Source: Alphaproteobacteria bacterium
GTDB lineage: Bacteria; Pseudomonadota; Alphaproteobacteria; JBFXJJ01
Direction: 5' to 3'
Assembly (NCBI GenBank): GCA_050175015.1
Contig: JBFXJJ010000009.1
Location: 29,937-93,936 of the forward strand
Length of the DNA: 64,000 nt
The position numbers were made by a program, and so were the translations under genes. The notes beneath the pieces are model-generated. The model worked only from the letters and a program-made list of their open reading frames with translations, was not told where the DNA came from and did no database searches. The number at the start of each line of letters is the position of its first letter. The first letter of the stretch is position 1. Shown here piece by piece: positions 6,396-60,208 of this stretch.

Positions 6396-7208
6396 ATGTC
6401 AAAAAGAAAAGATAGTGCTGAAGCTAGATTTTTAGCTTTTAAAAGCAGGGGTGTGGCCGGAGAGTTTCTTAGCGGCGCTAAAAATATATTAAAAAAAGCA
6501 CAAGAAGATAATAAGTCTTTAGAACCACAAGATTTATCGAAGACAAACCTTGTTGCTGTTGTGCGCAAATATTTTCCAGATTTTTGGAATAGTTCAGAAT
6601 GTGGAATTCGTTGGAATAACAATTGTTATTCATATGCTTGTAACGATCCTTTTGGTCATAAAGGTAAGCCTCAGCCAGGAGAAAAAGCTGGACACTGCTG
6701 TGAGAATATGACTATCGCTGATGTTACTAGAGCATCTATCAAAGATGGATTAGTTAAAGCTGAGTTAGATAAAAAAGGCAATCCTATTCCTAAAGACGGC
6801 TGCTATGTTGTAGCTTTAGTCGTAGCCGAAGATTATGATTATCATTGGTATCGCCAAGATGAAAATGGGAAATGGACTCACAAAATGGGTTCATCAGACA
6901 CTTTTGATGTTGATGCTGGAGGGCAAGTAATTACAGACCCTAGATATTGCAATCGTGGCTTGTATGATCAATTTGGCGGCTTCTTTTATGTTCCTAATAA
7001 CGGAATTAGGATTGGTGAAAAAGCAAGAAGATATAAAAAAGCAACATTTGAAGATGATTATAAACGTCATTTAGATAAACTTGATGAAAAATCTCGCAAA
7101 AAACTAAGCAAAGTTGTTGAAAAATGTGGAGTTTTTGTTGATAAGAAAAATATAGCAAATCAAAACTCTAGTTTTATAAATATGGTTAATAGAGGGAAAA
7201 GCCGTTAA
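6396..7208 (+). CDS. Hypothetical protein with putative papain-like Cys-His catalytic domain; candidate exported effector
   Basis: NNCYSYA, DYHWYRQD and WTHKMG motifs; no signal peptide; GAGG RBS; C-terminus FINMVNRGKSR. Confidence 0.65.
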   Translation: MSKRKDSAEARFLAFKSRGVAGEFLSGAKNILKKAQEDNKSLEPQDLSKTNLVAVVRKYFPDFWNSSECGIRWNNNCYSYACNDPFGHKGKPQPGEKAGHCCENMTIADVTRASIKDGLVKAELDKKGNPIPKDGCYVVALVVAEDYDYHWYRQDENGKWTHKMGSSDTFDVDAGGQVITDPRYCNRGLYDQFGGFFYVPNNGIRIGEKARRYKKATFEDDYKRHLDKLDEKSRKKLSKVVEKCGVFVDKKNIANQNSSFINMVNRGKSR

Positions 7209-7295
7209 AAAGCTTCCTCTTTATTAGAGAATTTGATATTTTTCTTTCTTAATAAAAAAGATAACTGGTATTTAACAAATACTAGTAAATCCTAG

Positions 7296-7913
7296 TTGGA
7301 GTTTATTACATTGCTTGAAGAAAAAATAGTCAAAGCTCTGCAAAGTTTAAATGGCGGAGAATTTAAACCTAAAAATAAAATAGGATTTAATGAGGCAAAA
7401 GATATTTTGAATGATATTCTGCAAGGCAAGTATCAAAAAGAAAACTATTTTTTGAATGAGAAGTATGAAGGCTCAAATAAAAGCCAAGAACAATTTAGCA
7501 CAGGAGATATAAGCGTTTTCAGACTTTGTGCGGTCACCAAACTTGGCGAAGGGGTTAGTGTCAATTTGGGCGGCATAGTTTATGATGAACCTTTTTTTGC
7601 GGTTCTTGCGGCTTTAAATGCTAATAATAAGGAAGTCTTACCTGTAGCTAAGAATTACGATACTTATAAAGCGTTGTTAAAAAAAGCAGAAATGGGTCTA
7701 AAAAAAGGTGTTTTCCAGTCTGACTTTTTGAGCAAGATTCAAATCTTTTTTAAAGAAGGCGATTTTATCGACGGCAAGGCCGAGCCTATGTTTGATGTTA
7801 TAACTATTAAAAAAGAGCAATTTGAAAAACTTCAAGCCAAGGGTTTTGCATCATTTTCTCAAAACGGCAGCATCAAGTTGTTTGAGCTTTACAAAAATCC
7901 GGATTTTAAATGA
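7296..7913 (+). CDS. Hypothetical protein
   Basis: 205-aa ORF whose stop overlaps the dtd start (ATGA); no recognised motif; start uncertain. Confidence 0.6.
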   Translation: MEFITLLEEKIVKALQSLNGGEFKPKNKIGFNEAKDILNDILQGKYQKENYFLNEKYEGSNKSQEQFSTGDISVFRLCAVTKLGEGVSVNLGGIVYDEPFFAVLAALNANNKEVLPVAKNYDTYKALLKKAEMGLKKGVFQSDFLSKIQIFFKEGDFIDGKAEPMFDVITIKKEQFEKLQAKGFASFSQNGSIKLFELYKNPDFK

Positions 7914-8353
7914 AAATAGTTTTACAGAGAGTTTCTAAAGCATCTGTTGTCGTAGATAATAAAATGATAGCAGATGTAGCTAAAGGCTTTTTAATTTTGT
8001 TTTGCGCAGAGATTGACGATAAGGAAGAAGATGCCAAATATCTTGCGTCAAAGATTATAAAAATGCGTATTTTCAGCGATGAACAAGATAAAATGAATCT
8101 TTCTATCAAAGATGTTGGGGGACAAATTCTAGCGGTTAGTCAATTTACACTTAGCGCTGATTGGAGAAGAGGCAACCGCCCCAGTTTTTCGAAAGCGGAA
8201 AAACCAGAAAGAGGCAATGACTTATATAATAAGTTCTGCTCTTATCTTGAAGAAGAGGGAATTGAGGTTCAAAAGGGCATTTTCGGTGCTAAGATGGAAG
8301 TCGAACTTCTTAATGATGGACCTGTTACCATTATAATGGATTCAAAAAATTAG
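7910..8353 (+). CDS. dtd: D-aminoacyl-tRNA deacylase
   Basis: VLQRV, VSQFTL, GNRPSF, NDGPVT signature motifs. Confidence 0.97.
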   Translation: MKIVLQRVSKASVVVDNKMIADVAKGFLILFCAEIDDKEEDAKYLASKIIKMRIFSDEQDKMNLSIKDVGGQILAVSQFTLSADWRRGNRPSFSKAEKPERGNDLYNKFCSYLEEEGIEVQKGIFGAKMEVELLNDGPVTIIMDSKN

Positions 8354-8404
8354 AATTGTCCGTGTCTAGATATCTATAACATTAATTGTTTTTTGCCTTA
8401 ATGC

Positions 8405-8887
8405 TTAGCGTCCGTTTTTAGCATTTTTTATAACAGCGATGTTAATAGCCGAGTTACTTGCTTCGGTAATCGGAGCGGGCTTATTATCATTAGATTTTTC
8501 TTCAAGATAACGCTGTTTGTTATCTAATATTTTACGGTTTATTTCTGACTTGTCAGGTGAGACAGACGCTTTTTCTAATGTTTTTGCTCTATCTAAGCCC
8601 TCTTTTTTAGTTGAGGAAAGCTTATCATCTTTAGGATTATGATGTTTTTGATCTTGTTCTTTTAAAACAAATTTCATCAATCTTGGAAAAATAGGTTTAA
8701 GTTTTTCTGCTATGCTTCGTCCTAGTTCTGTATTGCGAGCCAAAAAAGTTAAACAAACAAACTGTAATGAGCTAGAAAAAGGAACGCCAACCAAAATCAC
8801 ACTCGTTGTACAAACAAGAGCAACTTTAACTTTATGTGGTATTTTATTCCAATATCTTTTAAAGAATCCGGGCTTTTTTTCTGACAT
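8405..8887 (-). CDS. Hypothetical membrane protein; candidate exported effector
   Basis: Hydrophobic segment near the N-terminus, charged remainder, C-terminus INIAVIKNAKNGR. Confidence 0.6.
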   Translation of the reverse strand: MSEKKPGFFKRYWNKIPHKVKVALVCTTSVILVGVPFSSSLQFVCLTFLARNTELGRSIAEKLKPIFPRLMKFVLKEQDQKHHNPKDDKLSSTKKEGLDRAKTLEKASVSPDKSEINRKILDNKQRYLEEKSNDNKPAPITEASNSAINIAVIKNAKNGR

Positions 8888-8931
8888 TATAAAGCTTTCA
8901 TATTGTTTTTTCTTTAAAAATAATAATACAC

Positions 8932-9381
8932 TTATTTAACATTATTACTATCTTGATTTCTAGGTGTTACGACTAAAGATATTGTGGTATCATTAGTTCC
9001 AGAATTTTCTAATTGGATTGTAACAACCCTGGCTCTGCGTACATAGGTCATACTGCTGATTTTGGAACGTATGATGGCAACCTCCTGCCAATTAAACTTA
9101 GGCATTTCCGACATATAAAAATCAAACATTGAGCTTACATTGTATGGTGCAGAAAAAACAATTTTGCCTGTCCAAGATTCGCCGCTTCCTAAAACAACGG
9201 TGCTGTCTAAATCCATAATAGTTTTCTCAGGGAAAGGCAGGTCAGGAAATTGAGCAAAAGAAGCAGGAATCGCTTCTTCTTCTGTTCCCGATATGCTTCG
9301 GTTCGAAGCAACAGGGGCAAAACTGCTGGTGCAGCCTTGAATAACCATTAACAGAGAAAAAACACATATAATTCTAAACAT
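8932..9381 (-). CDS. Hypothetical lipoprotein
   Basis: Lipobox IQGC; FAQFPDLP...FDFYMSEMPKFNWQE globular region. Confidence 0.7.
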   Translation of the reverse strand: MFRIICVFSLLMVIQGCTSSFAPVASNRSISGTEEEAIPASFAQFPDLPFPEKTIMDLDSTVVLGSGESWTGKIVFSAPYNVSSMFDFYMSEMPKFNWQEVAIIRSKISSMTYVRRARVVTIQLENSGTNDTTISLVVTPRNQDSNNVK

Positions 9382-9581
9382 AAGTTTTCCACCTTAGACA
9401 TATACTAAAATATTTATAATCCTTTTTAAAATACACAAAAAAGAAAAAATATCAAAGCAGTTGTTTAAAAATAGGGAAATCTTTTTATGTTTTTTTTACC
9501 TTTATGCTTGCTTTGATTGTGGATTCAAACATAAACTAAAAACCATCTTATTTTTTTAAATTTTTTGGGAGTAGTTAAGAT

Positions 9582-10886: not shown

Positions 10887-10896
10887 TAAAATTTAA

Positions 10897-12543
<1,647 letters not shown>

Positions 12544-12635
12544 TAAATTTTTTACTTAAATTTAACGGCTTATCATTCATAATCGTTTCTTAAAATGAAT
12601 TTTCTTTAGGCTCTTTTTAAGGAAGAGGAATAGCT

Positions 12636-16018: not shown

Positions 16019-16040
16019 TATTTTTTAGGAAATAAAATAA

Positions 16041-17033
16041 ATGTCAGAGAAAGATACTTGTTCTTGTCATCATTGCCATTCAGATGAACATCATCACCAC
16101 ACAGAACACGAACATCATCACGAAGGTCATAGCTGCGACCACGGAATTACAGGGCATTGCCACGTATCGGACTTCTCCAATAAGAAGCGCATAATTTTTG
16201 TTATGATAATATCATTTCTTTATATGCTTTTAGAGATAGTTTTTGGCTTTTTATCTGGTTCACTGTCTCTTTTAGCGGATGCAGGACATGCCTTTATTGA
16301 TTCGGCATCTTTGTTGCTGGCATTCTTAGGGTTTCATTTGGCGGGTAAGGAAATAGATGAAAAAAGAAGCTATGGCTATCATAGATTTGAAATTCTAGCC
16401 GCCTTTGTTAATGGGCTTTTTTTGGCAGCTATTATCACTTGGATTTTTATCGAAGCGGTACAAAGGATATTAAATCCTGTCGATGTTAATGGCGAAATTG
16501 TGTTTGTCGTTGCTTTAGGCGGTTTTATTTTTAATGGAGCATCATTTTTTGTTCTTTTCAAAGGTGATAAGAAAAATCTTAATATGCAAGGCGCTCTTTT
16601 GCACGTTGCAGGCGATGCCCTTGCCTCACTGACGGCGATGATTGCGGGAGCGGTCATTGCATATACGGGCTATACAATTATCGATCCCATTTTATCGTTA
16701 TTATTAGTCGTTATTCTTGGCAAGGGAGCTTATGAAGTTATCAGAAAAAGCGGACATATTTTACTTGAAGGAACGCCTGCGGGTTTTAATCAGGAAGAAG
16801 TTAAAAAAACGCTTGAAGAAATTGATGGTATTGAAAACATTCACCATATTCACGCTTGGTCGCTGACTTTAGAAAAACCACTTCTAACGCTTCATATAAA
16901 GATAAAAGACAATCATAAAAACGATGACATTTTAAACAAGACCAAAGAAATTTTAAAAGAAAAATGGAATATTGTTCATACTGTAATTCAAATTGAAAAA
17001 GATGATTGTCCTGATTCTGAAGGGACATTTTAA
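16041..17033 (+). CDS. Cation diffusion facilitator (CzcD/ZitB-like Zn/Co/Cd exporter)
   Basis: His-rich N-terminus; SLSLLADAGH, SYGYHRFEIL, LHVAGD, HHIHAW. Confidence 0.92.
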   Translation: MSEKDTCSCHHCHSDEHHHHTEHEHHHEGHSCDHGITGHCHVSDFSNKKRIIFVMIISFLYMLLEIVFGFLSGSLSLLADAGHAFIDSASLLLAFLGFHLAGKEIDEKRSYGYHRFEILAAFVNGLFLAAIITWIFIEAVQRILNPVDVNGEIVFVVALGGFIFNGASFFVLFKGDKKNLNMQGALLHVAGDALASLTAMIAGAVIAYTGYTIIDPILSLLLVVILGKGAYEVIRKSGHILLEGTPAGFNQEEVKKTLEEIDGIENIHHIHAWSLTLEKPLLTLHIKIKDNHKNDDILNKTKEILKEKWNIVHTVIQIEKDDCPDSEGTF

Positions 17034-17050
17034 ACGTTGTTTTAGAGTTT

Positions 17051-17637: not shown

Positions 17638-18027
17638 ATGAAAAAGATTTTAATAGGTGCAGCTGTTGCTGCTTTATTTTCGGCGTCATTAGCTGTAAGT
17701 GCTAATGCTCAGTCCGCAGGTGCTGGTTATTATGGTGCTGGAGCTGTCCAAACTGGTGGTGCTAGTGGTGCTATTGGTGGTGCTGGTTATGGTGGTGCTG
17801 GTTATGGTGGTGCTTATGGGGCTGGTAGTAGTGCTGGAATGGCTGCTGGTGCAGGCGCTGGCGCTGCTGGTGCTGCTGGTGCCGCAGGTGTTGCTGCTGG
17901 TGCATTAGGTACTGGTCTTGTCGCTGGTGGTGTTGTTGCTGCTGCTGTTGGCGCAGCTGTTGCTGTTTCAGGCAACGATAGCAAGACAACAACAACTTCT
18001 GCTACAAGTGCTACGGCAGACCAATAA
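17638..18027 (+). CDS. YjbE/GfcA-like small secreted Gly/Ala-rich protein
   Basis: Signal peptide, Gly/Ala tract, hydrophobic VVAAAVGAAVAV then a Thr-rich tail as in YjbE; GAGG RBS; adjacent to yjbF. Confidence 0.65.
   Translation: MKKILIGAAVAALFSASLAVSANAQSAGAGYYGAGAVQTGGASGAIGGAGYGGAGYGGAYGAGSSAGMAAGAGAGAAGAAGAAGVAAGALGTGLVAGGVVAAAVGAAVAVSGNDSKTTTTSATSATADQ
17776..17817 (+). repeat. 15-bp coding tandem repeat (GGAGY x2 plus partial)
   Basis: GGTGGTGCTGGTTAT twice, then GGTGGTGCTTAT. Confidence 0.85.
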
Positions 18028-18046
18028 AATAGTTTTTTAAACTTAA

Positions 18047-18166: not shown

Positions 18167-18841
18167 TTATGGGGCTTCATAAGGCGTTAATACCTGAATT
18201 TTTATCGACGGCGTGTTAGGCAGGAAATGTTGAACGCTCTGCCATATGAAACCTGTTTTTAAGTCTTTCCAAAAAAGATTTTCGAAATGCCAATCAAGTT
18301 GTTTAGCATAAGATTTTTCTTTAATTACATAAGTTTCGTGCAAAGTATCTACTATTTTTATTTTGCCAACGCCCATAAATTCATAATCCGAATCGATTTT
18401 GATGCCATAATTATTATCCTCAGCAAAATCAACAATTCTTTGTGATGTTTGGGGTATAGGTTGTCCGTAAAGATGGCTTGCAATAGGATCATTATGAGCC
18501 CAAGCCGTATTAGATAAATTATGCTCAAAACCAATCGTCTTTACTAATCTTCCTTGGGAAGTAATTAAAATGGCATTATCAGCAGAATACCATATTAAAT
18601 CCTGATTAGAAGCTTGACCTAAAACTAAGACCGAATTTTGTCCTTTGCCGATTTTTGCCGCGATGCAGGCGTATGGAATATTATCCACAACCTGCTTTGT
18701 TATTTCAAAATTATCGGGACCATAAAGAGAATATTTAGCTGTTTTGATAACATTGCTAAATGTGCTGTTTTGACACGAAGTAATGAAGAAAAACGTAAAT
18801 AAAATCAAAACAATAGTTAATCTATTTTTGGATAAAGTCAT
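18167..18841 (-). CDS. yjbF: YjbF/GfcB-family group 4 capsule lipoprotein
   Basis: Lipobox ITSC; IPYA, WYSAD...GRLVKTIG, FENLFW.D..TG.IWQS.Q. Confidence 0.85.
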   Translation of the reverse strand: MTLSKNRLTIVLILFTFFFITSCQNSTFSNVIKTAKYSLYGPDNFEITKQVVDNIPYACIAAKIGKGQNSVLVLGQASNQDLIWYSADNAILITSQGRLVKTIGFEHNLSNTAWAHNDPIASHLYGQPIPQTSQRIVDFAEDNNYGIKIDSDYEFMGVGKIKIVDTLHETYVIKEKSYAKQLDWHFENLFWKDLKTGFIWQSVQHFLPNTPSIKIQVLTPYEAP

Positions 18842-18957
18842 AAATTTTTTAAGCCTTGTTGAAAACGGGTATTATTTCGAAATATAATTATCGTAAACTA
18901 CAAGCTTGTGGTATATCAACATTAGAGTTTTGTTTTATAAAAAAAGGTTCGTTGTTT

Positions 18958-21795
18958 ATGAAATTTCATAGTCGTTTTTTTCAATCATTGTTAATTTGCA
19001 GTCTTCTTTTGTGTTCCCTAAGCGCTGAGGCACAGAATTTGGGCAGTTTTAATGATAATTTGCTAAATTCTTTGGGTGAGCAGTTACAGACTAATGCCAA
19101 AAATGCCAATAACGCATCAAGCCAGCTAGACAATGCAAGAAACAGGCAAACGACAAATAACGTTAACAATGACAGAATCATAAACAACCAAAACCAAATA
19201 CCCGCGCCAACTAGAATAGAAAAGGATTATTTAAAGCGCCTAAAAGCAGTTTACTTTGATAATTTTGAAAAGAATACCAATAAAGCAAACAGTTCAGCAC
19301 AGGAAGAAAATCTAAATAACAAAGATGCTAATAATCCAGAGTCTTATTCTGAAGAAACTCTTAAACAGTTTGGATATGACTTATTTGATGGTTCTCAAGA
19401 TGGGGAACAAAATTTTGGAGCATTATTTAATTCTGTTAGAGATAGTTATGTTTTGGGAATCGGTGACGAGCTTATTCTTACCTATCGTGGGCAAAAAAGT
19501 GAGACCGAAACGGTTAAAGTAAATACTGAAGGGCAGATATTTTTAGAAGATTTTTCTCCGTTTGTGGCTTTGGGCCGTAAATTTGCGGATGTTAAAAATC
19601 AGATAAAAGATTTAGTTGCTAACAATATGGTAAAAACCGATGTTTTTGTATCTTTGGGTTCAGTCAAAGATTTATCTGTTGTGGTTAGTGGCGAAGTTGA
19701 AAAAGCTGGCGTTTATACTCTATCTGGTGTTGCCAATCTTTTTGATGCTCTTCTTAAAAGCGGCGGTATAAAGAAAACAGGTTCACTTAGAAACATTAAT
19801 ATCATTAGAAAGGGAAGAACAATCAATCTTGACCTTTATAACCTTTTGCTTGGTAAAGGTGACGTTAAAGATGTTGCTTTGGCTGACGGTGACCGTATCG
19901 TTGTTCCAACAATAGGAAAAACCGTTGCTGTTTTAGGTGATGTTAATCGTCCTGCTATTTATGAGTTAAAGCAAGATGAAATTAAGCAAGACGACGCTTT
20001 AGATTATGCAGGAGGAACTTTACGAGGAACCAGCTCAGGCTATAGGTATGTTACGATTTCAGGCAAAGAGAATGGTTTAGACGTTGTTAAAGAGCAAAAA
20101 TCGGCTAGCTATACAATGAAAGCCAGCGATATCTTAATTGTGATGAGAACGAGGGACAAACAGACGGAAGCTGTATTTTTGGAGGGACACGTTAATGTCC
20201 CAGGCGTAAGATCTTTATCTGCTTCATCTAATATCTCATCAATTATCAATGATGTTGAAATTTTTAAAGATAATCCTTATTTGCTTTTTGGTTTGGTTCA
20301 AAGACGAGATCCCGCTACTTTATCAAGATTTTTTATCCCTGTTAATTTTTTGCAGGTATTAAATGGCAGTGAAGATTTCTCTCTTGAAGACGGCGACAGA
20401 ATCATTGTTTTTGGTAGAGATGATATTAAATGGCTGACATCAAAAGATGTGCAAGATGTGTTGAATAAAGAAACGTTGGAATCCAAAAATCCTTGCCTAA
20501 ATAGGCTTATTTCTGCGGTCTCCTCTGGTTGGACAGATCGTTTTACAGCGGCTACACAGATAAACAGCAAAAATGCAATTAAGAAAGAAGATAAAGAAAA
20601 TCTTCGTAATACCTCTCGTAATAATAGCGACAATTATGATGATGATAATTATAATAACAATCAGAACAATCGTAATAATTTGAATTCTCAGAGAACAGAT
20701 AATTCAGATTTTGCTAATAAAACTGATGAAGAGGTCTACTTTTGCCCGGCAATATTTGAAAAATATTTAGATGTTTTACCTTTTATATTAACTAATGTTG
20801 TTAATGTTAATGGTGAGGTTAATTTGGTTGGAATTTACCCTGTTGTTGGAAAAGCTCCAGTTTCTTCATTGGTTACAGTCTGCGGAGGTTTAAGTCCTAA
20901 TGCTGATTTGTCAGCAATTGAGATTACGAGATTTTCTAATAGGGAAGCTTCAGAGAGAGATGTTATCAATGCTAACAAGCAGCCTTTAACCGAAGTTTTT
21001 GTTTCAGCTAACGATTATATAAGGTTTAATCAGACCTTTACAGATAGAGAGTCTGGCCACATTAATTTGGTAGGTGAGTTTAAAAGACCTGGATTTTATT
21101 CCATTAAGAAAGGGGAGAAACTTTCTGATGTTATAAACAGGGCTGGAGGACTTACTGATGAGGCCTATCCTATTGGCTCAGTCTTTACTAGAGAGTCTGT
21201 AAGGCAAGCAGAATATCAGATGATACAAATAGCTGTAAATAATATGCAGTCTGGCTTTATGCATTCGATGGCAAGTATGGAATTAAAAAACATTTCTCCT
21301 AACGCTGTGGTATCAATGATGTCAGAGTTAAAAAATTTAATGTCTGATACCGAACCATTAGGGAGAATTGTTGTTGAAGCCGATCCTTTAAAACTGCAAT
21401 TAAGTCCAGAGTTAGATATGATTTTAGAGGCTGGGGATAATGTTTATATGCCTAAGCGTCCTAACCATGTTTTAGTTAGTGGCGAAGTGCTTCATAGTGG
21501 GGCATTGCAGTTTATTTCAGGAAGATCTCCTCGTGAGTATATAAAACTTGCAGGAGGAACAACCCAAAGCGCTGATAAGTCAAGGACGTTTATGGTTTTA
21601 CCTAATGGTACAGCTAAACCAGTTAGCCTTTCCTCTTGGAACTTAGGTAAAGTCAATGTTCCACCAGGAAGTACAATATTGGTTCCAAGGGATACGGCTC
21701 CTGCAAACTTTATGATATTTACAAAAGATATTCTTGATATTGTAAGTAAAGCAGCTGTTACCGCCGCATCAATTAAAGTTCTTAACGATGATTAA
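18958..21795 (+). CDS. Large multi-SLBB polysaccharide export protein (Wza/KpsD-like)
   Basis: Signal peptide; QFGYDLF, YVLGIGD, repeated V.GEV..PG.Y / GG SLBB units; ATG at 18958. Confidence 0.88.
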   Translation: MKFHSRFFQSLLICSLLLCSLSAEAQNLGSFNDNLLNSLGEQLQTNAKNANNASSQLDNARNRQTTNNVNNDRIINNQNQIPAPTRIEKDYLKRLKAVYFDNFEKNTNKANSSAQEENLNNKDANNPESYSEETLKQFGYDLFDGSQDGEQNFGALFNSVRDSYVLGIGDELILTYRGQKSETETVKVNTEGQIFLEDFSPFVALGRKFADVKNQIKDLVANNMVKTDVFVSLGSVKDLSVVVSGEVEKAGVYTLSGVANLFDALLKSGGIKKTGSLRNINIIRKGRTINLDLYNLLLGKGDVKDVALADGDRIVVPTIGKTVAVLGDVNRPAIYELKQDEIKQDDALDYAGGTLRGTSSGYRYVTISGKENGLDVVKEQKSASYTMKASDILIVMRTRDKQTEAVFLEGHVNVPGVRSLSASSNISSIINDVEIFKDNPYLLFGLVQRRDPATLSRFFIPVNFLQVLNGSEDFSLEDGDRIIVFGRDDIKWLTSKDVQDVLNKETLESKNPCLNRLISAVSSGWTDRFTAATQINSKNAIKKEDKENLRNTSRNNSDNYDDDNYNNNQNNRNNLNSQRTDNSDFANKTDEEVYFCPAIFEKYLDVLPFILTNVVNVNGEVNLVGIYPVVGKAPVSSLVTVCGGLSPNADLSAIEITRFSNREASERDVINANKQPLTEVFVSANDYIRFNQTFTDRESGHINLVGEFKRPGFYSIKKGEKLSDVINRAGGLTDEAYPIGSVFTRESVRQAEYQMIQIAVNNMQSGFMHSMASMELKNISPNAVVSMMSELKNLMSDTEPLGRIVVEADPLKLQLSPELDMILEAGDNVYMPKRPNHVLVSGEVLHSGALQFISGRSPREYIKLAGGTTQSADKSRTFMVLPNGTAKPVSLSSWNLGKVNVPPGSTILVPRDTAPANFMIFTKDILDIVSKAAVTAASIKVLNDD

Positions 21796-21809
21796 AAAGG
21801 ACTTAGTAG

Positions 21810-27361: not shown

Positions 27362-29248
27362 TTAACGCTGCTTGTTATTTAAGGCTTTGGCCGCAACATT
27401 TTTTTCAACTTTAGCTGGAGCCTTGGCTGGTTGTTGCGTCTTTGTTTTATCCATACCTAATTCATCAGTAAGTTTTTCAAGTTCATCAACAAACCCAGAA
27501 ATAACTTTTAAGCCTTTGTCCCAAAAATCTGGTTTAGAAGCATCTAAGCCAAAAGGAGCAAGCATTTCTTTATGTTTTTCGGTGCCGCCCTTAGAAAGCA
27601 TTTCTAGGTATTTGCCTTGGAAGTCAGAAACTTTGCCATCTTCATAAGTTTTATAAAGAGAGTTAACAAGGCAGTCTCCGAAAGCATAAGCATATACGTA
27701 GAAAGGGGTATGAATCATATGAGGGATACGTCCCCAGCCTGTTTCAGACACTTCCGTTTGATTAACACTTGGGCCAGAGCTGTCTTTTTGATGTTTTGAC
27801 CAAATAGCATTTAAACGTTCAACTGAAAGCTCACCATTCTCGCGGCGTTCTTTATGCACATCGGTTTCGTAACTATGAAATGCTATTTGTGTTACGGCGG
27901 TGCCTAACATATCGCTGGTTTTTTCAGCTAACATCGAAAAACGTTTTTTAGGATCTTTTTCTTCTTTGAGCATTGATTTAAAGGTAAGCATTTCACCAAA
28001 AACTGAAGCCGTTTCAGCTAAAGTTAAAGGAGTATCTGCCATTAAATCGCCACGTTCTTTCGCAAGATATTGGTGAACACCGTGCCCTAATTCGTGAGCA
28101 AGCGTCATAACATCACCAGCTCTGCCTTGGAAGTTTAAAAGAATATAGGGGTGAGATTCTTGTACTCCGGGCATTGAATAAGCTCCAGATCTTTTTCCTT
28201 CTTTCGGTGCAACATCAATCCAGTTGTTATCAAAGAATTTTTTCCCAATCTCTGCCATTTCAGGCGAAAATTCACCAAAAGCCTTAAGAACGATTCTTTT
28301 AGCATCATCAAAAGAATACTTGGTTTCTGGAATATCTGGAATTGGAGCGTGCTTATCCCAAGATTCTAATTTTTCAAGTCCCAGCCATTTTGCTTTTAAG
28401 GCATAATAGCGGTGAGAGGTATTCGCATAATTGTTTTTAACTGAAGAAACAAGAGCATCAACAACTTCATTCTCAACATTATTGCCAAGATTTCTTGATT
28501 CATAAGGTTCTTTGAAACCGCGCCATTCATCATCAACTTTTTTATCAAGAGCAAGGGTGTTGGTAACAAAAGCAAAAAATTTAGCCTTTTCGTTAAGAAC
28601 TTTGCTTCTGGCCTTGGCTGCTTTTTCGCGCATTTCACGATCTGGGTTTTCAAAAAGTGCGCTGACTTCTGTTTCGGTATACTGCTTGCCGTCGATGTTA
28701 TAACGTAAATCGGAAAGGGTTTCATCATAAAGACGAATAATTGCAGAATGACCTGTCATAGCTTTTTGCTGTGACATTTTTTCTAAATCATCAGATAAGT
28801 CGTGTTTGCGGAAAGATCTAACATTATCAAGCCAAGGTTTGTAATGGGCAACATTAGGATTTGCCATTTTTTCTGCTAAATTTTCGTCAGAAAGACGATT
28901 GATTTCTAGGCTGTAAAAAAGGGTTTTGCTTCCAATATCGGTCGACTTTTCTTCGAATCCTTGATAAAAGCCCATAATCTTTTCATCATTAAGGCTGGTT
29001 GAGCGTAGCAAGTAGGCGTATGCTCCCATTTTGCCGAGAAGACCTGATATTTTTTCATATTCTTCAACCGATTTGGCAAAATCTTCACCAGAAAGATTTT
29101 TAAGATTGCCTTGATACCTTTTAGCAAATCTTTCGGAAAGAGTTGCGGCTTTGGCTAAATCATTTTTGAATTCTTGTGAATCTGGGCTTGGATAAAGGTC
29201 TGTTAAGTCCCAGTTTGGCATTGCTTGGCTGTTATCTTGTTCGCTCAT
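27362..29248 (-). CDS. pepF: Oligoendopeptidase F (M3B) with extra C-terminal tail
   Basis: WDLTDLY, GKRSGA, TLAHELGHG.H, LAETASVFGEM, PFYVYAYAFG. Confidence 0.92.
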   Translation of the reverse strand: MSEQDNSQAMPNWDLTDLYPSPDSQEFKNDLAKAATLSERFAKRYQGNLKNLSGEDFAKSVEEYEKISGLLGKMGAYAYLLRSTSLNDEKIMGFYQGFEEKSTDIGSKTLFYSLEINRLSDENLAEKMANPNVAHYKPWLDNVRSFRKHDLSDDLEKMSQQKAMTGHSAIIRLYDETLSDLRYNIDGKQYTETEVSALFENPDREMREKAAKARSKVLNEKAKFFAFVTNTLALDKKVDDEWRGFKEPYESRNLGNNVENEVVDALVSSVKNNYANTSHRYYALKAKWLGLEKLESWDKHAPIPDIPETKYSFDDAKRIVLKAFGEFSPEMAEIGKKFFDNNWIDVAPKEGKRSGAYSMPGVQESHPYILLNFQGRAGDVMTLAHELGHGVHQYLAKERGDLMADTPLTLAETASVFGEMLTFKSMLKEEKDPKKRFSMLAEKTSDMLGTAVTQIAFHSYETDVHKERRENGELSVERLNAIWSKHQKDSSGPSVNQTEVSETGWGRIPHMIHTPFYVYAYAFGDCLVNSLYKTYEDGKVSDFQGKYLEMLSKGGTEKHKEMLAPFGLDASKPDFWDKGLKVISGFVDELEKLTDELGMDKTKTQQPAKAPAKVEKNVAAKALNNKQR

Positions 29249-39758: not shown

Positions 39759-40592
39759 TTACTTGCTTCTATCTGCGGCTTTTTCTTTAGCCATTCTAAC
39801 TTGTTCGGCAGACAATTCACGTTTCGTAACCTTTTTCACAGCTTTGGTATTGTGACGTCCTGATTTTTCTAAAATCATAGATAATTTACGACGTTCGTTT
39901 TTATCCATTTTGCCGTGACGTGATTTTTCAATCTTTTGAACTTGAACCTGAGATTTTTTCTTTTCTTCTTTTTCTTCTTTTTTAGCAACTTTTTTACCGA
40001 GATATTTAGAAAATTCTTTGTAATATTTATTGTCTTTAATGCTGAAACTGAAGAGTCCGCTGCTTGCTCTCTTTTTAGCAGCTTTTTCAAAATCTTTGGC
40101 TTTGGCATTTGGGTTATTTCTTGCATTGTCTAAGGCTTTGTTTTTTAATCCCTTAGGCATTTTTATTTTATGCTTTCTTAAAATTTTTCTGGATTCGTTA
40201 GCACGATTTTCACGGCGATGAATGCGATCTTCATTAGATCTTTCTGAGGCATTTTTTTGAGTGCTAGCATAAGGATTTTTAGCTTCCTCAGCCCCGCCTT
40301 TTTCGACTCTATTATTTCTAATATTATCTAAAATATGTTCTTCGATTAGGTCGTTAGTGCGAGATTGAGTATTGCTTTCTGTAACTTTTTTATCGTGTAC
40401 CGAGTTATGATCAAGTCCTCTTTTTTTCATTATCATATCAAGGACTTCTCTTTTTAATGTGGAGCTATTAGCGTGAAAGTTTTCGCCTAAATCTTTAAGA
40501 GTTGCGTTTTCAACGTTTTCTTCTCTTTTTTTGCTACGAGCAGACTTTTGTCCGACATCGGTGTTTTTATTATTATTTTGGCTCCAGTCCAT
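39759..40592 (-). CDS. Hypothetical Lys/Arg/Asn-rich protein; candidate exported effector
   Basis: 277-aa hydrophilic ORF with AAGGA RBS; C-terminus LSAEQVRMAKEKAADRSK. Confidence 0.6.
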   Translation of the reverse strand: MDWSQNNNKNTDVGQKSARSKKREENVENATLKDLGENFHANSSTLKREVLDMIMKKRGLDHNSVHDKKVTESNTQSRTNDLIEEHILDNIRNNRVEKGGAEEAKNPYASTQKNASERSNEDRIHRRENRANESRKILRKHKIKMPKGLKNKALDNARNNPNAKAKDFEKAAKKRASSGLFSFSIKDNKYYKEFSKYLGKKVAKKEEKEEKKKSQVQVQKIEKSRHGKMDKNERRKLSMILEKSGRHNTKAVKKVTKRELSAEQVRMAKEKAADRSK

Positions 40593-44876: not shown

Positions 44877-44952
<76 letters not shown>

Positions 44953-47181: not shown

Positions 47182-47199
47182 GTTTTAAACTTTTCAGTT

Positions 47200-47631
47200 T
47201 TAAGATTTTTCGCCATTTTTCCAACGTTTTACGGCACCGAACTGTTTTACGAGCTCGTCTACATTGCGAGCTTTGCGGATAACATCGTTTCGTGTTTCTA
47301 ATCCTTCGGCAAGAATCTCATCAACTTTTTCAACAGTGACACCATAAACACGCTCAACTGTCTTACCGTCTAATTCTGCAACCATAACAATTTCAGTATG
47401 ATTCAAAGGTCTGCAAGCTTCTTCATGAATATTTTCTAACTTAATAGAAAGGTCAGCGTTGCGTCTTAAAAGGGCAGTTTTTTTGCCATCAAATAAAAGT
47501 TCAGGGTGTTCTGGCTGACCTTTTTTGGCATCAATAAATATTGCAATTTCACCATATTTATTTTCAATAATTTCAAAACTATTTTGTTTTTCAATAGTTG
47601 TATAATAATTCTGATTATTTATTTCTGTCAT
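47200..47631 (-). CDS. Hypothetical small acidic protein, paralog of 60205-60519
   Basis: FEIIENKYGEIAIFIDAK...P.LL...A.L.R......LENIH aligns by eye with 60205-60519. Confidence 0.7.
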   Translation of the reverse strand: MTEINNQNYYTTIEKQNSFEIIENKYGEIAIFIDAKKGQPEHPELLFDGKKTALLRRNADLSIKLENIHEEACRPLNHTEIVMVAELDGKTVERVYGVTVEKVDEILAEGLETRNDVIRKARNVDELVKQFGAVKRWKNGEKS

Positions 47632-51096: not shown

Positions 51097-51119
51097 AGCT
51101 TTTCTTGGGATATAAAATT

Positions 51120-51716: not shown

Positions 51717-51725
51717 CGGAAAGAA

Positions 51726-52886: not shown

Positions 52887-52904
52887 GGAAGTTTTGAGGA
52901 TAGA

Positions 52905-55481: not shown

Positions 55482-55507
55482 CAAAACATTATAACTGGAG
55501 TCAGAGA

Positions 55508-57496: not shown

Positions 57497-59070
57497 AGAA
57501 GTTTTTAGTATGTTTTATGCTAATAATTGCGGTTCCTATAAGCGTTAAAGCTTGGTGGGCAGATGGTCTCTTGCGTTTTGATGATTATCCTGTAGCTGCG
57601 GAAGAAGAGTATTTTAAGGCTCTTTATTCTGATATTTATGAAAAATATCTTTGGCAGAAAAAACTGCTTGATTTAACAACAACCGCCGTAACCGCTCTTA
57701 ATACTTTGGATCAAAATGTCAGAGTTGCTATCGAGGCGGATAGATTTTTAGTCTATAACAACAACTCAATGATTAAGAGTTTCAAAATTCCGAAAGAAGG
57801 TAAATCATATCTCAAAGACTGGGCAAGATTCACCGTTGAAGTTATTGTCGCTTCGCGTTCGCAGTCTCAAAAAATTAAAGCCCTCAGAGCTGTTGATGTT
57901 CACAAGATTATGACCGAAGCTGTTATGGATACGCTGGATAGTTTTTCTCATTACATCATTAGGGAAGATACCACCGATGCTTCCGAAGACTTTTTTGCGG
58001 AAACAGGTCTTAGATTAAAAAAAACGGGGCGCATTTTGGAGGTTGTCTCAATCGTTGCAGGTTCTAGTGCCGAAGATGCAGATATTAATATTGGTGATTT
58101 TATTACTCATATTGATGGTGAAGAAATATCGCCTATGGATTCGCAAATGCTGATTGATAGACTTAACGGCAAAAAAGGCAGTTTTGTAAAGCTTACCGTT
58201 GTTAATCATAATAGTTTTGTAGCCGAAGATGTTAAGCTTATGAGGACTAAAATCGCTCCCAGTCCAATAGCTGCCGAGCTGAAAGATGATATTTTGTTTA
58301 TTGTGATTTATGGTTTTAACAAAGCAACCGCTGGTGCAATTAAGGAGGCGGTGTTTAATGCCACAATCGCAAAAGATAAGGACGGCAACAGCACCGTTAA
58401 AAATCTTAAGGGTATCGTAATTGATTTGCGAAGCAATTTAGGCGGAATTTTTGAGCAAGCTGTAGAGACGGCAGATTTGTTTTTAGACAATGGTCCTATT
58501 GTTTTTGCCAGAGGACGGCACGATGAATCTTTTCAATATTATGAAGCCTCAAAAAGTGTAATTGTTCCGACGGCGATTCCTATGGTGGTTATAATTGATG
58601 GTAAGACAGCCTCATCATCTGAGGTTTTAGCCGCAGCTCTGCAAGATAATGGCAGAGCCGTTGTGGCTGGTACAACATCTTATGGCAAAGGGACGATACA
58701 GACCGTTATGAAGCTTCCAGATGGCAATGAACTGTCATTAACGTGGTCAAGATTCTATGCCCCATCGGGGTATTCTCTGCATTCGCAAGGGGTTTTGCCT
58801 AGTATTTGTTATCCCGACAGATCTTTAGCGAAAGATGAAGATGTTATAACTAAAACGGCTGATAATTATAAAAATATTAGCCGCAAGCTGTATGATTGGC
58901 GCAGAACTAACCCTGACGATAAAAAACTTCATCAAATTCAACGTGAAATATGCCCGCCGCAGATTCGTTTTGCCGAAAAAGATGACCTTCAATTGGCTAA
59001 AGAAATAATCTTAAATGCCGAGGTTTATAAAAAAGTTATTGCAAATTCGGTATTTTTTATAAGTTATTAA
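57493..59070 (+). CDS. S41-family C-terminal processing protease (PDZ)
   Basis: Signal peptide; PDZ; IDLRSNLGG, TASSSE, SYGKGTIQ. Confidence 0.9.
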   Translation: MKKFLVCFMLIIAVPISVKAWWADGLLRFDDYPVAAEEEYFKALYSDIYEKYLWQKKLLDLTTTAVTALNTLDQNVRVAIEADRFLVYNNNSMIKSFKIPKEGKSYLKDWARFTVEVIVASRSQSQKIKALRAVDVHKIMTEAVMDTLDSFSHYIIREDTTDASEDFFAETGLRLKKTGRILEVVSIVAGSSAEDADINIGDFITHIDGEEISPMDSQMLIDRLNGKKGSFVKLTVVNHNSFVAEDVKLMRTKIAPSPIAAELKDDILFIVIYGFNKATAGAIKEAVFNATIAKDKDGNSTVKNLKGIVIDLRSNLGGIFEQAVETADLFLDNGPIVFARGRHDESFQYYEASKSVIVPTAIPMVVIIDGKTASSSEVLAAALQDNGRAVVAGTTSYGKGTIQTVMKLPDGNELSLTWSRFYAPSGYSLHSQGVLPSICYPDRSLAKDEDVITKTADNYKNISRKLYDWRRTNPDDKKLHQIQREICPPQIRFAEKDDLQLAKEIILNAEVYKKVIANSVFFISY

Positions 59071-59090
59071 GATTAAAGAGATTAAAAGGC

Positions 59091-59118
59091 TTGACTTTGC
59101 TGCTATCTTCGTTATTGT
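59091..59118 (+). promoter_or_regulatory. Probable sigma70 promoter of rpmG
   Basis: TTGACT-16 nt-TATTGT. Confidence 0.4.
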
Positions 59119-59163
59119 TTTCTTTTATTATTAATAACCATTGAAGAATTGTTTAGGTGCGTT

Positions 59164-59331
59164 ATGGCAAAACCAGTTGTGATCCAAGTCAAACTTGAAA
59201 GTACTGCGGGAACAGGATATTTCTATGTAACCAAAAAGAATCCAAGAAATCTTACTGAAAAGTTGGTTATGAAAAAATATGATCCCAAAGTTCGCAAGCA
59301 CGTTGAGTTTAAAGAAACCAAACTCAAATAG
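59164..59331 (+). CDS. rpmG: 50S ribosomal protein L33
   Basis: [23 protein letters not shown]...[13 protein letters not shown]. Confidence 0.97.
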
Positions 59332-59362
59332 TAGCTTTAGTACTTTATGAAAAAAGTTTTTT

Positions 59363-59394
59363 AAAAATAGTGCATTTATTGCACTATTTTTTTT
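59363..59394 (+). terminator. Terminator after rpmG
   Basis: AAAAATAGTGCA-TTTAT-TGCACTATTTTT. Confidence 0.8.
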
Positions 59395-59455
59395 GTAAAT
59401 TTTTTTGCTTTTACTAAAGGCAGAAAGATAAAATATTTTGTTGCGGAGGTTTTTA

Positions 59456-59677
59456 ATGTTTATAAAAGAAAAAGATTATATAGATTTTAAAATTACGGCG
59501 GAAAAGTTACAGTCAGAACTTGAAAAGCTAAGGAAACTTCCCTTTCTTGTCGGCATTGAAGATTTAGATGATATGACAACTTTTATATTTTGCAAAGATG
59601 AGCAATTTTATGCTGTCGATACGATTGTAACCAGCAATAATTTAGAAAAATTAAAACAAGATTTACTTAATAAATAA
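59456..59677 (+). CDS. Small hypothetical protein
   Basis: GGAGG RBS before ATG 59456; 73 aa; no recognised motif. Confidence 0.5.
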   Translation: MFIKEKDYIDFKITAEKLQSELEKLRKLPFLVGIEDLDDMTTFIFCKDEQFYAVDTIVTSNNLEKLKQDLLNK

Positions 59678-59730
59678 AACCGAGTTTAGATTGTTTGATA
59701 CTTTAGATAAGAGTATTTTGCGATTTTAAA

Positions 59731-59794
59731 AAAAGTTTTGATTTTACTTTTACAAAAGTAAAGCTGTCGGCAGGCATTTGCCGTGAGGCAAAAT
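59731..59794 (+). repeat. Intergenic palindromic repeat, copy 4
   Basis: AAAAGTTTTGATTTTACTTTTACAAAAGTAAAGCTGTCGGCAGGCATTTGCCGTGAGGCAAAAT. Confidence 0.72.
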
Positions 59795-59825
59795 TATAAA
59801 CTTAATAAAACTTCTAGCGATATAA

Positions 59826-59859
59826 AAAAACCGTTTAAGTTGTTTCTTAAACGGTTTTT
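59826..59859. terminator. Bidirectional terminator
   Basis: AAAAACCGTTTAAG...CTTAAACGGTTTTT. Confidence 0.82.
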
Positions 59860-59866
59860 ATTTTGA

Positions 59867-60208
59867 TTAACGGTTGTTTGCCCTGTTTTGCAAATCTTTA
59901 ATGCTTATTTTAGCAGGTTCAACAGGTTTGTAATTAGGATCAACTTGTTCATATACGGCATTAATGGCATTGATATGATCATTCATCATTTTTTCCATGG
60001 ATTTATAAGCATTGTATCCAACGGTTGCGGTATAGAATACAATAGTTCCAACTATGGCAAGCCTTGCTGCCGTTCCCAGAGGTCTGGTTAGGATATTCTT
60101 ATTTTCAAAAGATGCTTTTTTGCGGCTGGCATCTTCACCACGTCTTACTTGACCATACACTTTTATTTGTTTGCTTTTAGCAAATCTTTCTAAATTTTTT
60201 TCTGTCAT
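59867..60208 (-). CDS. Hypothetical single-TM protein; candidate exported effector
   Basis: Central hydrophobic helix; C-terminus ISIKDLQNRANNR; start overlaps the upstream stop. Confidence 0.6.
   Translation of the reverse strand: MTEKNLERFAKSKQIKVYGQVRRGEDASRKKASFENKNILTRPLGTAARLAIVGTIVFYTATVGYNAYKSMEKMMNDHINAINAVYEQVDPNYKPVEPAKISIKDLQNRANNR

What the first reader, a model, noticed from the sequence alone, without database searches (positions are those of the whole stretch)
6396..60208. Five scattered, unrelated proteins share a basic C-terminal tag: candidate export signal and effector repertoire
Seen: the C-termini are SSFINMVNRGKSR* (6396-7208), INIAVIKNAKNGR* (8405-8887), KNVAAKALNNKQR* (PepF), ISIKDLQNRANNR* (59867-60208) and, more weakly, LSAEQVRMAKEKAADRSK* (39759-40592). 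Each has a polar linker, a short amphipathic stretch, N/K/R-rich residues and a terminal Arg (Lys in one). None has a Sec signal peptide. The four orphans sit singly among conserved genes. Established: VirB/D4-type type IV secretion substrates often carry positively charged C-terminal signals. Inference: these are substrates of a secretion machine encoded outside the window, in a host-associated or predatory alphaproteobacterium. Caveat: AT-rich codons favour N and K, and n=5.
Basis: partly seen in the sequence, partly recalled or inferred. Interest (0 to 1): 0.78.

Follow-up and report, generated by a model that had tools for sequence, protein, structure and literature searches.

The report
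Basic protein tails: mostly not a tag
Five proteins that seemed to share a basic end-tag are a mixed set: one is a real toxin-type protein, one is a housekeeping peptidase with a conserved lineage-specific tail, and the shared tag is not shown.

Summary
As a five-member tag they do not hold up.

- **Basic tails are common.** 15 of 54 window proteins carry net charge of +3 or more in their last 13 residues.
- **Terminal Arg is not enriched.** Exactly 4 of 54 proteins end in Arg.
- **Profile test.** I built a profile from PepF tails of relatives. Only the 8405-8887 tail matches it beyond its own composition (13 of 3000 shuffles score as high). The tails of 6396, 59867 and 39759 do not.

Two things are real.

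1. **6396-7208 is a toxin-type protein.** It is a stand-alone copy of a Cys/His domain (invariant N76-C77 and H150). Elsewhere this domain forms the C-terminal toxin end of RHS/YD and PAAR proteins.
2. **The PepF tail is conserved in a lineage.** 22 of 24 extended relatives end in Arg, and they fall in one clade of uncultured Alphaproteobacteria. The tail is predicted to be disordered.

No gene for a secretion machine that reads C-terminal signals lies in the window. The genome could not be searched. The type IV secretion reading is untested and currently unsupported.

The parts
6396..7208 (+). 270-aa stand-alone toxin-domain protein. The N-terminal ~60 aa are low confidence. The core is residues ~60-215 (nt ~6573-7040), with invariant N76-C77-Y78, K91-P-Q-P-G95, D148-Y-H150-W-Y-R-Q-D155 and W160. 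A clade-specific helical C-terminal extension covers residues ~207-270. The quoted tail is nt 7167-7205.
   Evidence: 72 homologues at E<=0.001. Alignments A1 and A2. AF2 mean pLDDT 81.7, with 10-residue block means of 91-98 over residues 61-240. No Pfam, NCBIfam or PADLOC family.
7296..7913 (+). 205-aa protein of no family, directly downstream of the toxin gene and overlapping dtd by 4 nt. It is a candidate immunity protein by position only (inferred).
   Evidence: No family. Atlas gave no usable hit, and the Atlas model has pLDDT 0.45.
8405..8887 (-). 160-aa small protein with a basic N-terminus and a hydrophobic segment at residues ~20-50. Its C-terminal tail (nt 8408-8446) is the only one resembling the PepF-clade tail beyond composition.
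   Evidence: KD19 maximum 1.87. HMM 9.2 bits, top of 1335. Shuffle test 13/3000. One homologue, P0195, among 1.84 billion representatives.
27362..29248 (-). M3 oligoendopeptidase (PepF-type), 628 aa. The family model ends at residue 593. Residues 594-628 (nt 27365-27469) are a lineage-specific disordered extension ending in ...NNKQR.
   Evidence: TIGR02290 623.6 bits against a cutoff of 561.7, matching residues 12-593. Relatives' tails. Tree. AF2 tail pLDDT 42-67 with no secondary structure.
39759..40592 (-). 277-aa Lys/Glu/Asn-rich protein of no family, downstream of the CckA-like histidine kinase. Its tail ends in K and does not match the PepF-tail profile.
   Evidence: No family. Atlas model pTM 0.22, no usable hit. 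Shuffle test 2931/3000 reach the observed score.
59867..60208 (-). 113-aa protein with no detected relative. It has a basic N-terminal 45 aa and a hydrophobic segment at residues ~46-68. Its C-terminal 44 aa probably lie on the other side of the membrane from the N-terminus (inferred). The tail does not match the PepF-tail profile.
   Evidence: Only itself found among 5 candidates. KD19 maximum 1.37. PSSM rank 14 of 54. Shuffle test 692/3000.
60205..60519 (-). 104-aa protein of no family, translationally coupled to 59867-60208 and paralogous to 47200-47631. Listed as context, not as part of a tag.
   Evidence: BLASTP E 8e-11, 32% identity over 73 aa.

Best explanation
The five tails are not one tag. 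They are a mixed set that looks alike because basic, Asn/Lys-rich C-termini are common in this 36% GC genome, and because the four proteins that end in Arg were picked out.

1. **6396-7208** encodes a stand-alone papain-like Cys/His domain (NC...H signature). Elsewhere this domain is the C-terminal toxin end of RHS/YD and PAAR proteins. I infer that it acts as a cysteine peptidase or deamidase on a protein of another cell. I also infer that it leaves the cell by a contact-dependent route. A type VI cargo route is the first guess, because some relatives are fused to PAAR and RHS. The downstream orphan 7296-7913 is a candidate immunity protein. Homology and conserved residues are shown. Activity, export route and immunity are inferred.
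2. **PepF** is a cytoplasmic M3 oligoendopeptidase. In one clade of uncultured low-GC Alphaproteobacteria it gained a disordered extension of about 30 aa ending in a conserved ...K-x-R-COOH. This is a real short linear motif under selection. Its partner is unknown. I infer a cytoplasmic binding partner that reads the free C-terminus.
3. **8405-8887** is a small membrane protein whose tail resembles the PepF tail. It may share that partner, but the evidence is only suggestive.
4. **59867-60208 and 39759-40592** are lineage-restricted basic proteins whose tails match nothing beyond composition.
For: - Basic tails occur in 15/54 window proteins. Eleven are outside the finding, and 10 of those 11 have a Pfam family.
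- Terminal R occurs in 4/54.
- Post-hoc descriptor: 4/54 against 36/1277, p 0.075.
- The tails of 6396, 59867 and 39759 score no better than their own shuffles against the PepF-tail HMM. They are absent from the top 40 of 1335.
- Toxin homology: 72 hits at E<=0.001. Ten carry precomputed Pfam accessions PF25023, PF05593 or PF05488. Eight are named RHS repeat-associated or YD repeat-containing by JGI.
- In the fused forms the domain is at the extreme C-terminus.
- N76, C77, H150, R153, Q154 and D155 are invariant in 71 sequences.
- The toxin model is confident: mean pLDDT 81.7, with block means of 91-98 over residues 61-240.
- The weak Foldseek hits are mostly papain-like cysteine peptidases: USPs, the PCAT1 chain, protein glutaminase, OspI and Josephin-type enzymes.
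- PepF tail: 24 of the 119 other listed relatives have an extension. 22 of those 24 end in R, and the other two have R at position -2.
- Tail-bearing rows are 23 of 29 in one branch with 100% support.
- The PepF tail is predicted disordered and not docked on the body.
Against: - The 8405 tail is the best match to the PepF-tail HMM among 1335 C-termini and beats 99.6% of its own shuffles. So at least two unrelated proteins may share a real motif.
- The only homologue of 8405 (P0195, 39-44% identical) keeps a similar ...LAVFKRAFNRD end although the region before it has diverged.
- The three closest stand-alone toxin homologues (P0002-P0004) also carry a C-terminal extension with a hydrophobic patch and basic end. 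One of them ends in R.
- All four terminal Arg codons are CGT or CGC, though CGY is only 289/805 of Arg codons. This hints at selection for Arg in an AT-rich genome.
- The window holds only 54 proteins, so the tests have little power.
- The controls are ORFs of 150 aa or more from unrelated bacteria, not curated genes.
- No T6SS gene is in the window either, so the proposed export route for the toxin has no local support.
Confidence: 0.6

Rival explanations
1. The tails are positively charged C-terminal signals read by a VirD4-type coupling protein. The five proteins are substrates of a type IV secretion system encoded outside the window.
For: - All five tails are net positive: +3 or +4 in the last 13 residues for four of them, and +2 by my count for 59867.
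- Type IVA signals are described as short, positively charged or hydrophobic C-terminal stretches (passages).
- 6396-7208 has a toxin domain. Stand-alone toxin domains are reported as effectors of intracellular bacteria (passages of PMC3482391).
- The toxin's close homologues share a C-terminal extension that the RHS-fused forms lack.
- Membrane-helix-bearing type IV effectors are known (abstract of PMC12981334).
Against: - No type IV gene is in the window.
- Three of the four non-PepF tails are not distinguishable from shuffles.
- Equally basic tails sit on MucR, TopA, RNase R and others.
- PepF is a housekeeping enzyme. Its tail is kept across a deep clade, which is odd for an effector signal.
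- The C-terminal part of 59867 probably lies across the membrane from the cytoplasm (inferred).
- The Arg-cluster consensus that I recall for Agrobacterium substrates is not present. These tails are Lys/Asn/Ala-rich with one or two Arg.
Confidence: 0.1
2. A lineage-specific short C-terminal motif (small hydrophobic residues, Lys, then K-x-R at the free end) marks PepF, the membrane protein 8405-8887 and perhaps the toxin. It would serve a cytoplasmic partner other than a type IV coupling protein, for example an adaptor for localisation, a stabilising or destabilising factor, or loading into a compartment.
For: - PepF tail conservation: 22/24 end in R, in one clade.
- The tail is disordered, as expected for a linear motif.
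- The 8405 tail is top of 1335 and beats its shuffles.
- P0195 keeps a similar tail.
- P0002, a toxin homologue, scores 5.2 bits, rank 7 of 1335.
- The strict position of Arg at the very end suggests that the free carboxyl end is read (inference).
Against: - E 0.19 for the 8405 match is not significant on its own.
- After allowing for picking the best of 53 window tails, the rank-based chance is about 4% (my arithmetic).
- P0195 ends in ...NRD, not R, and is not in the top 40.
- The toxin's own tail scores 0.2 bits.
- No candidate partner was identified. No encapsulin-type gene is in the window.
- In the one study I read, terminal Arg is disfavoured by Lon (passages of PMC11986505). That argues against a Lon degron but says nothing for other partners.
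Confidence: 0.2
3. The tails are membrane-binding amphipathic helices that hold the proteins at the inner membrane.
For: - The toxin's last helix (residues 254-266) is predicted helical, at low confidence.
- The tails are cationic, which favours acidic lipids (established knowledge).
- A HeliQuest-type discrimination value exceeds 0.68 for PepF, 8405 and 59867.
Against: - Hydrophobic moments (0.21-0.48; PepF-clade mean 0.32) are not above controls (0.38).
- The PepF tail is Ala/Lys-rich with few bulky hydrophobic residues and is predicted to be coil.
- This reading does not explain a conserved terminal Arg.
Confidence: 0.05

Closest known systems
C-terminal toxin domains of polymorphic toxins (RHS/YD- and PAAR-linked), papain-like clades such as Tox-PL1 (Zhang et al. 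2012, PMC3482391)
   Same: The core of 6396-7208 is homologous to domains at the extreme C-terminus of proteins carrying RHS/YD and PAAR Pfam accessions. It has an invariant N-C dipeptide and a His on a following strand. Tox-PL1 is described with an NC-H-DxQ signature (passages). The weak fold matches are mostly papain-like.
   Different: It is stand-alone, with no RHS, PAAR or other trafficking region. It has an extra ~55-aa C-terminal extension seen only in its three closest relatives. No Pfam model matches even at E<=10, so membership of Tox-PL1 itself is not shown. After the His the conserved residues are R-Q-D, not DxQ. No recognised immunity family lies next to it.
Positively charged C-terminal signals of VirB/VirD4 (type IVA) substrates, such as Agrobacterium Vir proteins and the tail of Bartonella Beps
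   Same: They lie at the extreme C-terminus, carry net positive charge and have no fold of their own (for the known signals; for the charges here).
   Different: No type IV genes are in the window. There is no BID-type domain match. The tails are Lys/Asn/Ala-rich rather than Arg clusters (the consensus is recalled, not from a call). A conserved terminal Arg is not a known requirement. One carrier is a housekeeping peptidase.
M3 family oligoendopeptidase (TIGR02290 subfamily; PepF-type)
   Same: The match is full-length and above the curated cutoff, covering residues 12-593. The HEXXH region is invariant in the alignment as H385-E386-L-G-H389.
   Different: It has a 35-aa disordered basic extension ending in Arg. 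This is shared only with one clade of uncultured Alphaproteobacteria. The 95 other listed relatives mostly end in an acidic ...FIDELE-type sequence.
Short C-terminal recognition peptides on otherwise unrelated proteins: encapsulin cargo-loading peptides and basic ClpX C-terminal signals (both recalled, not tested)
   Same: The layout matches for PepF: a flexible linker followed by a motif of about 10 residues at the very end, with basic last residues.
   Different: No encapsulin shell gene is in the window. Two of the five proteins have membrane segments. No sequence comparison with those motifs was made here.

Membership tests
Type IV secretion (VirB/VirD4-type) substrate | A type IV secretion system with a coupling protein is encoded in the same genome. 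| not testable with these tools
   None among the window's 54 proteins. The source genome was not found in genome contigs, and no other genome access was on hand.
Type IV secretion (VirB/VirD4-type) substrate | A net positive, unstructured extreme C-terminus. | tested here: met
   Net +3 or +4 in the last 13 residues for four of the five, and +2 by my count for 59867. The feature is not discriminating, because 11 other window proteins also reach +3.
Type IV secretion (VirB/VirD4-type) substrate | The tail is necessary and sufficient for translocation of a reporter. | not testable with these tools
   This is an experiment.
   Against the PepF-clade tail HMM, the number of 3000 shuffles reaching the observed score is 13 for 8405, 2081 for 6396, 692 for 59867 and 2931 for 39759. 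The feature is met for one of four.
Polymorphic-toxin C-terminal toxin domain (papain-like) | Homology to domains at the C-terminal end of RHS/YD or PAAR proteins. | tested here: met
   72 hits at E<=0.001. Ten carry PF25023, PF05593 or PF05488. The domain is terminal in the fused forms.
Polymorphic-toxin C-terminal toxin domain (papain-like) | A conserved catalytic Cys and His in a papain-like fold. | tested here: inconclusive
   C77 and H150 are invariant in 71 sequences. Foldseek gives no match at E<=0.001; the best is E 0.061, and the top hits are mostly papain-like peptidases. The PDB profile search found 0 hits at E<=10.
Polymorphic-toxin C-terminal toxin domain (papain-like) | An N-terminal trafficking region (RHS, PAAR, WXG and the like) on the same polypeptide. 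| tested here: not met
   The 60 N-terminal residues match no family and are modelled at low confidence.
Polymorphic-toxin C-terminal toxin domain (papain-like) | A cognate immunity gene immediately downstream. | tested here: inconclusive
   7296-7913 is in the right place but matches no family.
M3 oligoendopeptidase (TIGR02290) | A score above the curated cutoff over the full model. | tested here: met
   623.6 bits against 561.7, model positions 1-587.

The most novel reading that the evidence does not exclude
An uncultured clade of low-GC Alphaproteobacteria uses a so far undescribed short C-terminal signal. The signal is a disordered linker, a few small hydrophobic residues and Lys, and a strictly terminal Arg. 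It marks unrelated proteins for one recognition machine, which could serve export, compartment loading or controlled turnover. The marked proteins would be PepF, the small membrane protein 8405-8887 and possibly the stand-alone toxin 6396-7208. The three independent losses of the PepF tail in the clade would let that machine be found by phylogenetic profiling.
Probability: 0.2. Interest if true: 0.6.

Novelty: new member of a known kind. Interest (0 to 1): 0.33.

Why it matters
If the five-protein tag had been real, it would have pointed to a secretion signal and an effector set in an uncultured lineage. It is not supported as a set, which spares a wasted effector hunt based on basic tails alone. 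Two modest leads remain.

- **A stand-alone toxin domain.** It is papain-like, matches no Pfam model, and is related to RHS and PAAR toxin ends. It is a testable toxin with a candidate immunity gene next door.
- **A conserved PepF extension.** It is disordered, ends in Arg, is conserved across a clade, and was lost about three times. That pattern gives a clean comparative handle for finding whatever reads it.

Tried and rejected
- **Shared DNA element at the gene ends.** A repeat or mobile element could make similar tails. I rejected this: the last 63 nt plus 120 nt downstream show no common sequence beyond CGY-TAA.
- **Finding the source genome or syntenic relatives.** The single genome-contig scan, with Dtd as query, returned only distant non-syntenic loci at 58% identity or less (tblastn of all 54 proteins against the 80 loci).
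- **The listing of cluster members.** Switched off.
- **Complex prediction for the toxin with 7296-7913.** Not available.
- **Atlas look-alikes for 7296-7913 and 39759-40592.** No usable hit.
- **PADLOC.** Nothing below E 0.01.
- **PDB profile search for the toxin.** 0 hits.
- **Plasmid search.** 3 distant hits, all hypothetical proteins (Rhizobium, Streptomyces, Vibrio). I opened the Rhizobium and Vibrio regions. The plasmid typing lists MPF_T for the Rhizobium record, and a traI gene lies about 2 kb from the Vibrio hit. No type IV gene is annotated in the Rhizobium stretch, and I drew nothing from the traI.
- **Membrane-binding amphipathic helix.** Not supported by the hydrophobic moment.
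- **Lon degron.** Made unlikely by the one study read, in which terminal Arg is disfavoured (passages only).
- **Paper searches.** Four searches, including one for a PepF C-terminal extension and one for a terminal-Arg signal, turned up nothing specific in the listings I read. This does not show that nothing is in print.

Full report
**What is in the window.** The window is 36% GC. From the 138 ORFs of at least 60 aa I chose by hand 54 long, non-overlapping ORFs as the working gene set and translated them. Pfam places most of them in ordinary families. Among these are a partial T2SSF-type gene, an Hsp33 family protein, Dtd, a UDP-glucose/GDP-mannose dehydrogenase family protein, a phosphoglucomutase and a yjbF/yjbH-type capsule cluster. 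Others are FlbT, an M3 peptidase, a thioredoxin family protein, AddA/AddB-like proteins (my reading of the UvrD-helicase and PD-(D/E)XK domains), a CckA-like kinase and MucR. The list also includes DprA, a type I DNA topoisomerase (TopA-type), an RNB-domain exoribonuclease (RNase R-type), an S41 peptidase and two Sel1-repeat proteins. PepF's closest named relatives are 'MAG: Alphaproteobacteria bacterium' at 79-80% identity. Rhodospirillales-type names follow at about 53-54%. So this is an uncultured alphaproteobacterium. My single genome-contig scan (query Dtd) found only distant, non-syntenic loci.

**Check of the observation.** The five ORFs and their C-termini are exactly as quoted. The four non-PepF proteins match no Pfam or NCBIfam family. 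Basic ends, however, are common here.
- 15 of 54 proteins have net charge of +3 or more in the last 13 residues. Eleven are not in the finding, and ten of those have Pfam families (MucR, TopA, RNase R, a MATE transporter, a Wzy-type protein and others).
- The control rate is 16-18% in 1277 control C-termini, taken from ORFs of at least 150 aa in the 80 unrelated loci.
That is 7.4%, against 10.4% in all controls and 3.8% in the 208 low-GC controls. The set was in effect chosen by this feature.
- A descriptor that I tuned afterwards to include all four was: ends in R, net charge at least +2, at least 3 hydrophobic residues upstream, and no acid in the last 8. It gives 4/54 against 36/1277, Fisher p 0.075.
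- The 'amphipathic stretch' is not borne out. Best helical hydrophobic moments are 0.21-0.48 for the five. The controls average 0.38 and all window termini 0.43.
- No DNA repeat is shared at the gene ends.

**An independent test of the tag.** PepF has many relatives, so its tail can be profiled without using the window. Of the 119 other listed relatives, 24 have an extension of at least 22 aa after the conserved ...FIDELE-type helix. 22 of those 24 end in Arg, and the other two have Arg at the second-last position. By my reading, the remaining 95 end mostly in acidic residues, and one ends in R.

I ran two profile tests, both leaving out the window's own PepF.
- **Ungapped matrix from 20 such tails.** It ranks the other window proteins as follows: 62312-63571 (a Wzy-type membrane protein, not in the finding), then 8405, 6396 and 39759. 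59867 is 14th of 54.
- **Gapped HMM from 22 tails.**
  - It puts the 8405-8887 tail first of 1335 C-termini (9.2 bits, E 0.19), above the window's own PepF (5.3 bits).
  - The toxin homologue P0002 scores 5.2 bits.
  - The tails of 6396, 59867, 39759, P0003, P0004 and P0195 are not in the top 40.
  - 8405 is also first of 431 six-frame ORFs in the window.

In a shuffle test, 13 of 3000 free shuffles of the 8405 tail reach its score (25 of 3000 with the last residue fixed). The figures for the others are 2081 for 6396, 692 for 59867 and 2931 for 39759. So one of the four non-PepF tails resembles the PepF tail beyond composition, and three do not.

**What the PepF tail is.** TIGR02290 covers residues 12-593 above its cutoff, and residues 594-628 are extra. 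I built a quick maximum-likelihood tree of 60 rows. These were the 23 tail-bearing rows, window included, plus 37 tail-less ones that I picked from the list, and the tails were cut off before tree building. The tail-bearing rows are 23 of 29 in one branch with 100% support. The tree needs about one gain and three losses (4 changes; starred branches force at least 3). The careful search did not finish. AlphaFold2 with this alignment gives a confident body (mean pLDDT 92.4). The tail has pLDDT 42-67, no secondary structure and no docking on the body. So this is a disordered, lineage-specific extension whose last residue is held as Arg across substantial divergence. That is a short linear motif under selection. 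I could not find what reads it.

**What 6396-7208 is.** A search found 72 proteins at E<=0.001 among 478 candidates.
- Ten carry precomputed Pfam accessions PF25023, PF05593 or PF05488. I recall these as YD-shell, RHS repeat and PAAR.
- Eight carry the JGI names 'RHS repeat-associated protein' or 'YD repeat-containing protein'.
- In those fused forms the matched domain sits at the very C-terminus.
- Invariant residues in 71 aligned sequences include N76, C77, Y78, Y80, P94, G95, H150, R153, Q154, D155 and W160 (one hit, P0062, was left out).
- The AlphaFold2 model has mean pLDDT 81.7, with 10-residue block means of 91-98 over residues 61-240.
- Foldseek against the PDB gives no match at E<=0.001 (best 0.061). 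The weak list is dominated by papain-like cysteine peptidases and deamidases.
- A sequence profile search of the PDB found nothing. Pfam finds nothing even at E<=10.
- Zhang et al. 2012 describe several papain-like toxin clades in polymorphic toxins, among them Tox-PL1 with an NC-H-DxQ signature (passages of PMC3482391). The N-C dipeptide fits, but the residues after the His do not obviously fit, and membership was not shown.

Only the three closest homologues (P0002-P0004, 38-52% identity) are stand-alone like this one. They share its ~55-aa C-terminal extension, and each has a hydrophobic patch and a basic end. Only P0002 ends in R. The gene downstream, 7296-7913, has no family and no usable look-alike. 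It is a candidate immunity gene by position only. The complex prediction that could have tested this was not available.

**The other three.**
- **8405-8887** has a basic N-terminus and a hydrophobic stretch of about 30 residues. It has a single homologue among 1.84 billion representatives (P0195, 141 aa). The tail of P0195 is similar in its hydrophobic-Lys core but ends in ...NRD.
- **59867-60208** has no relative in the word-based search. It has a basic N-terminal 45 aa and one hydrophobic segment, so its tail probably lies across the membrane from the cytoplasm (inference). It overlaps by 4 nt the upstream gene 60205-60519, a paralogue of 47200-47631.
- **39759-40592** is a Lys/Glu/Asn-rich protein with a poor Atlas model (pTM 0.22) and no look-alike.

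**Mechanism and rivals.** My best reading (0.6) is that there is no five-member tag. The set combines four things:
- a real toxin-type protein whose export route is unknown; a type VI cargo route is a guess from the PAAR and RHS relatives, with no local support;
- a housekeeping peptidase with a real lineage-specific C-terminal motif;
- one small membrane protein that may share that motif;
- two basic proteins without detected relatives.

The type IV reading (0.1) rests on charge alone. The literature does describe such signals. But the window has no type IV gene, and the tails are not separable from those of core proteins. A narrower reading (0.2) is that PepF and 8405, perhaps with the toxin, share a new recognition motif. 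The evidence allows this, and it is the interesting residue of the finding. A membrane-binding helix (0.05) is not supported. A Lon degron is unlikely if the Yersinia result on terminal Arg carries over (passages of PMC11986505).

**Novelty and verdict.** The five-protein tag as posed is not established. What is real are new members of known kinds: a stand-alone relative of polymorphic-toxin papain-like domains, and an M3 peptidase with a clade-specific tail. Interest is 0.33. The open question worth following is what reads the Arg-ended PepF tail. It can be addressed by genome-wide scans and by phylogenetic profiling across the tail losses.

Noticed in passing
window 60205-60519 (-) and 47200-47631 (-): Two small proteins of no family are paralogues (BLASTP E 8e-11, 32% over 73 aa). 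One is translationally coupled to 59867-60208 and lies just downstream of the 12-repeat Sel1 protein 60606-62216.
   Followed up: partly
window 7203-7208, 8405-8410, 27362-27367, 59867-59872: All four terminal Arg codons are CGT or CGC followed by TAA, although CGT+CGC make up only 289 of 805 Arg codons in the window's genes (AGA is the commonest).
   Followed up: partly
window 6700-9100, including dtd 7910-8353: Dtd's best relatives in genome contigs carry non-alphaproteobacterial titles at 58% identity or less. It overlaps the orphan 7296-7913 by 4 nt, and GC dips to 0.30-0.34 here. This may be an acquired islet holding the toxin gene and three family-less genes. The scan method only finds shared peptide words, so the taxonomic signal is weak.
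   Followed up: partly
window 18167-24782: A capsule-type cluster holds yjbF, a 979-aa fusion of Poly_export, three SLBB domains and a GfcC C-terminal domain, and a 990-aa YjbH protein whose best-matched Pfam stretch covers only residues 541-974.
   Followed up: no
window 17638-18027 (+): A 129-aa Gly/Ala-rich protein with a signal-peptide-like N-terminus and a Thr/Ser-rich end. It matches no family.
   Followed up: no
window 62312-63571 (-): The Wzy_C (O-antigen ligase-type) membrane protein has a basic tail that scores second in the ungapped PepF-tail matrix. It is an example of how ordinary cytoplasmic ends of membrane proteins mimic the 'tag'.
   Followed up: yes
window 59149-59331 (+) and 59438-59677 (+): The ~800-nt gap upstream of 59867 is not empty. 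It holds a short ORF whose translation I read, from recall and with no family search, as ribosomal protein L33, and a 79-aa ORF of no known family.
   Followed up: partly
window 2-715 (+): A partial T2SSF/PilC-type inner-membrane platform gene runs off the window start. It is the only secretion- or pilus-type gene in the window, and it is not of a kind that reads C-terminal signals.
   Followed up: partly
window 16041-17033 (+): The cation-efflux (CDF) transporter has a His-rich N-terminus (…CSCHHCHSDEHHHHTEHEH…).
   Followed up: no
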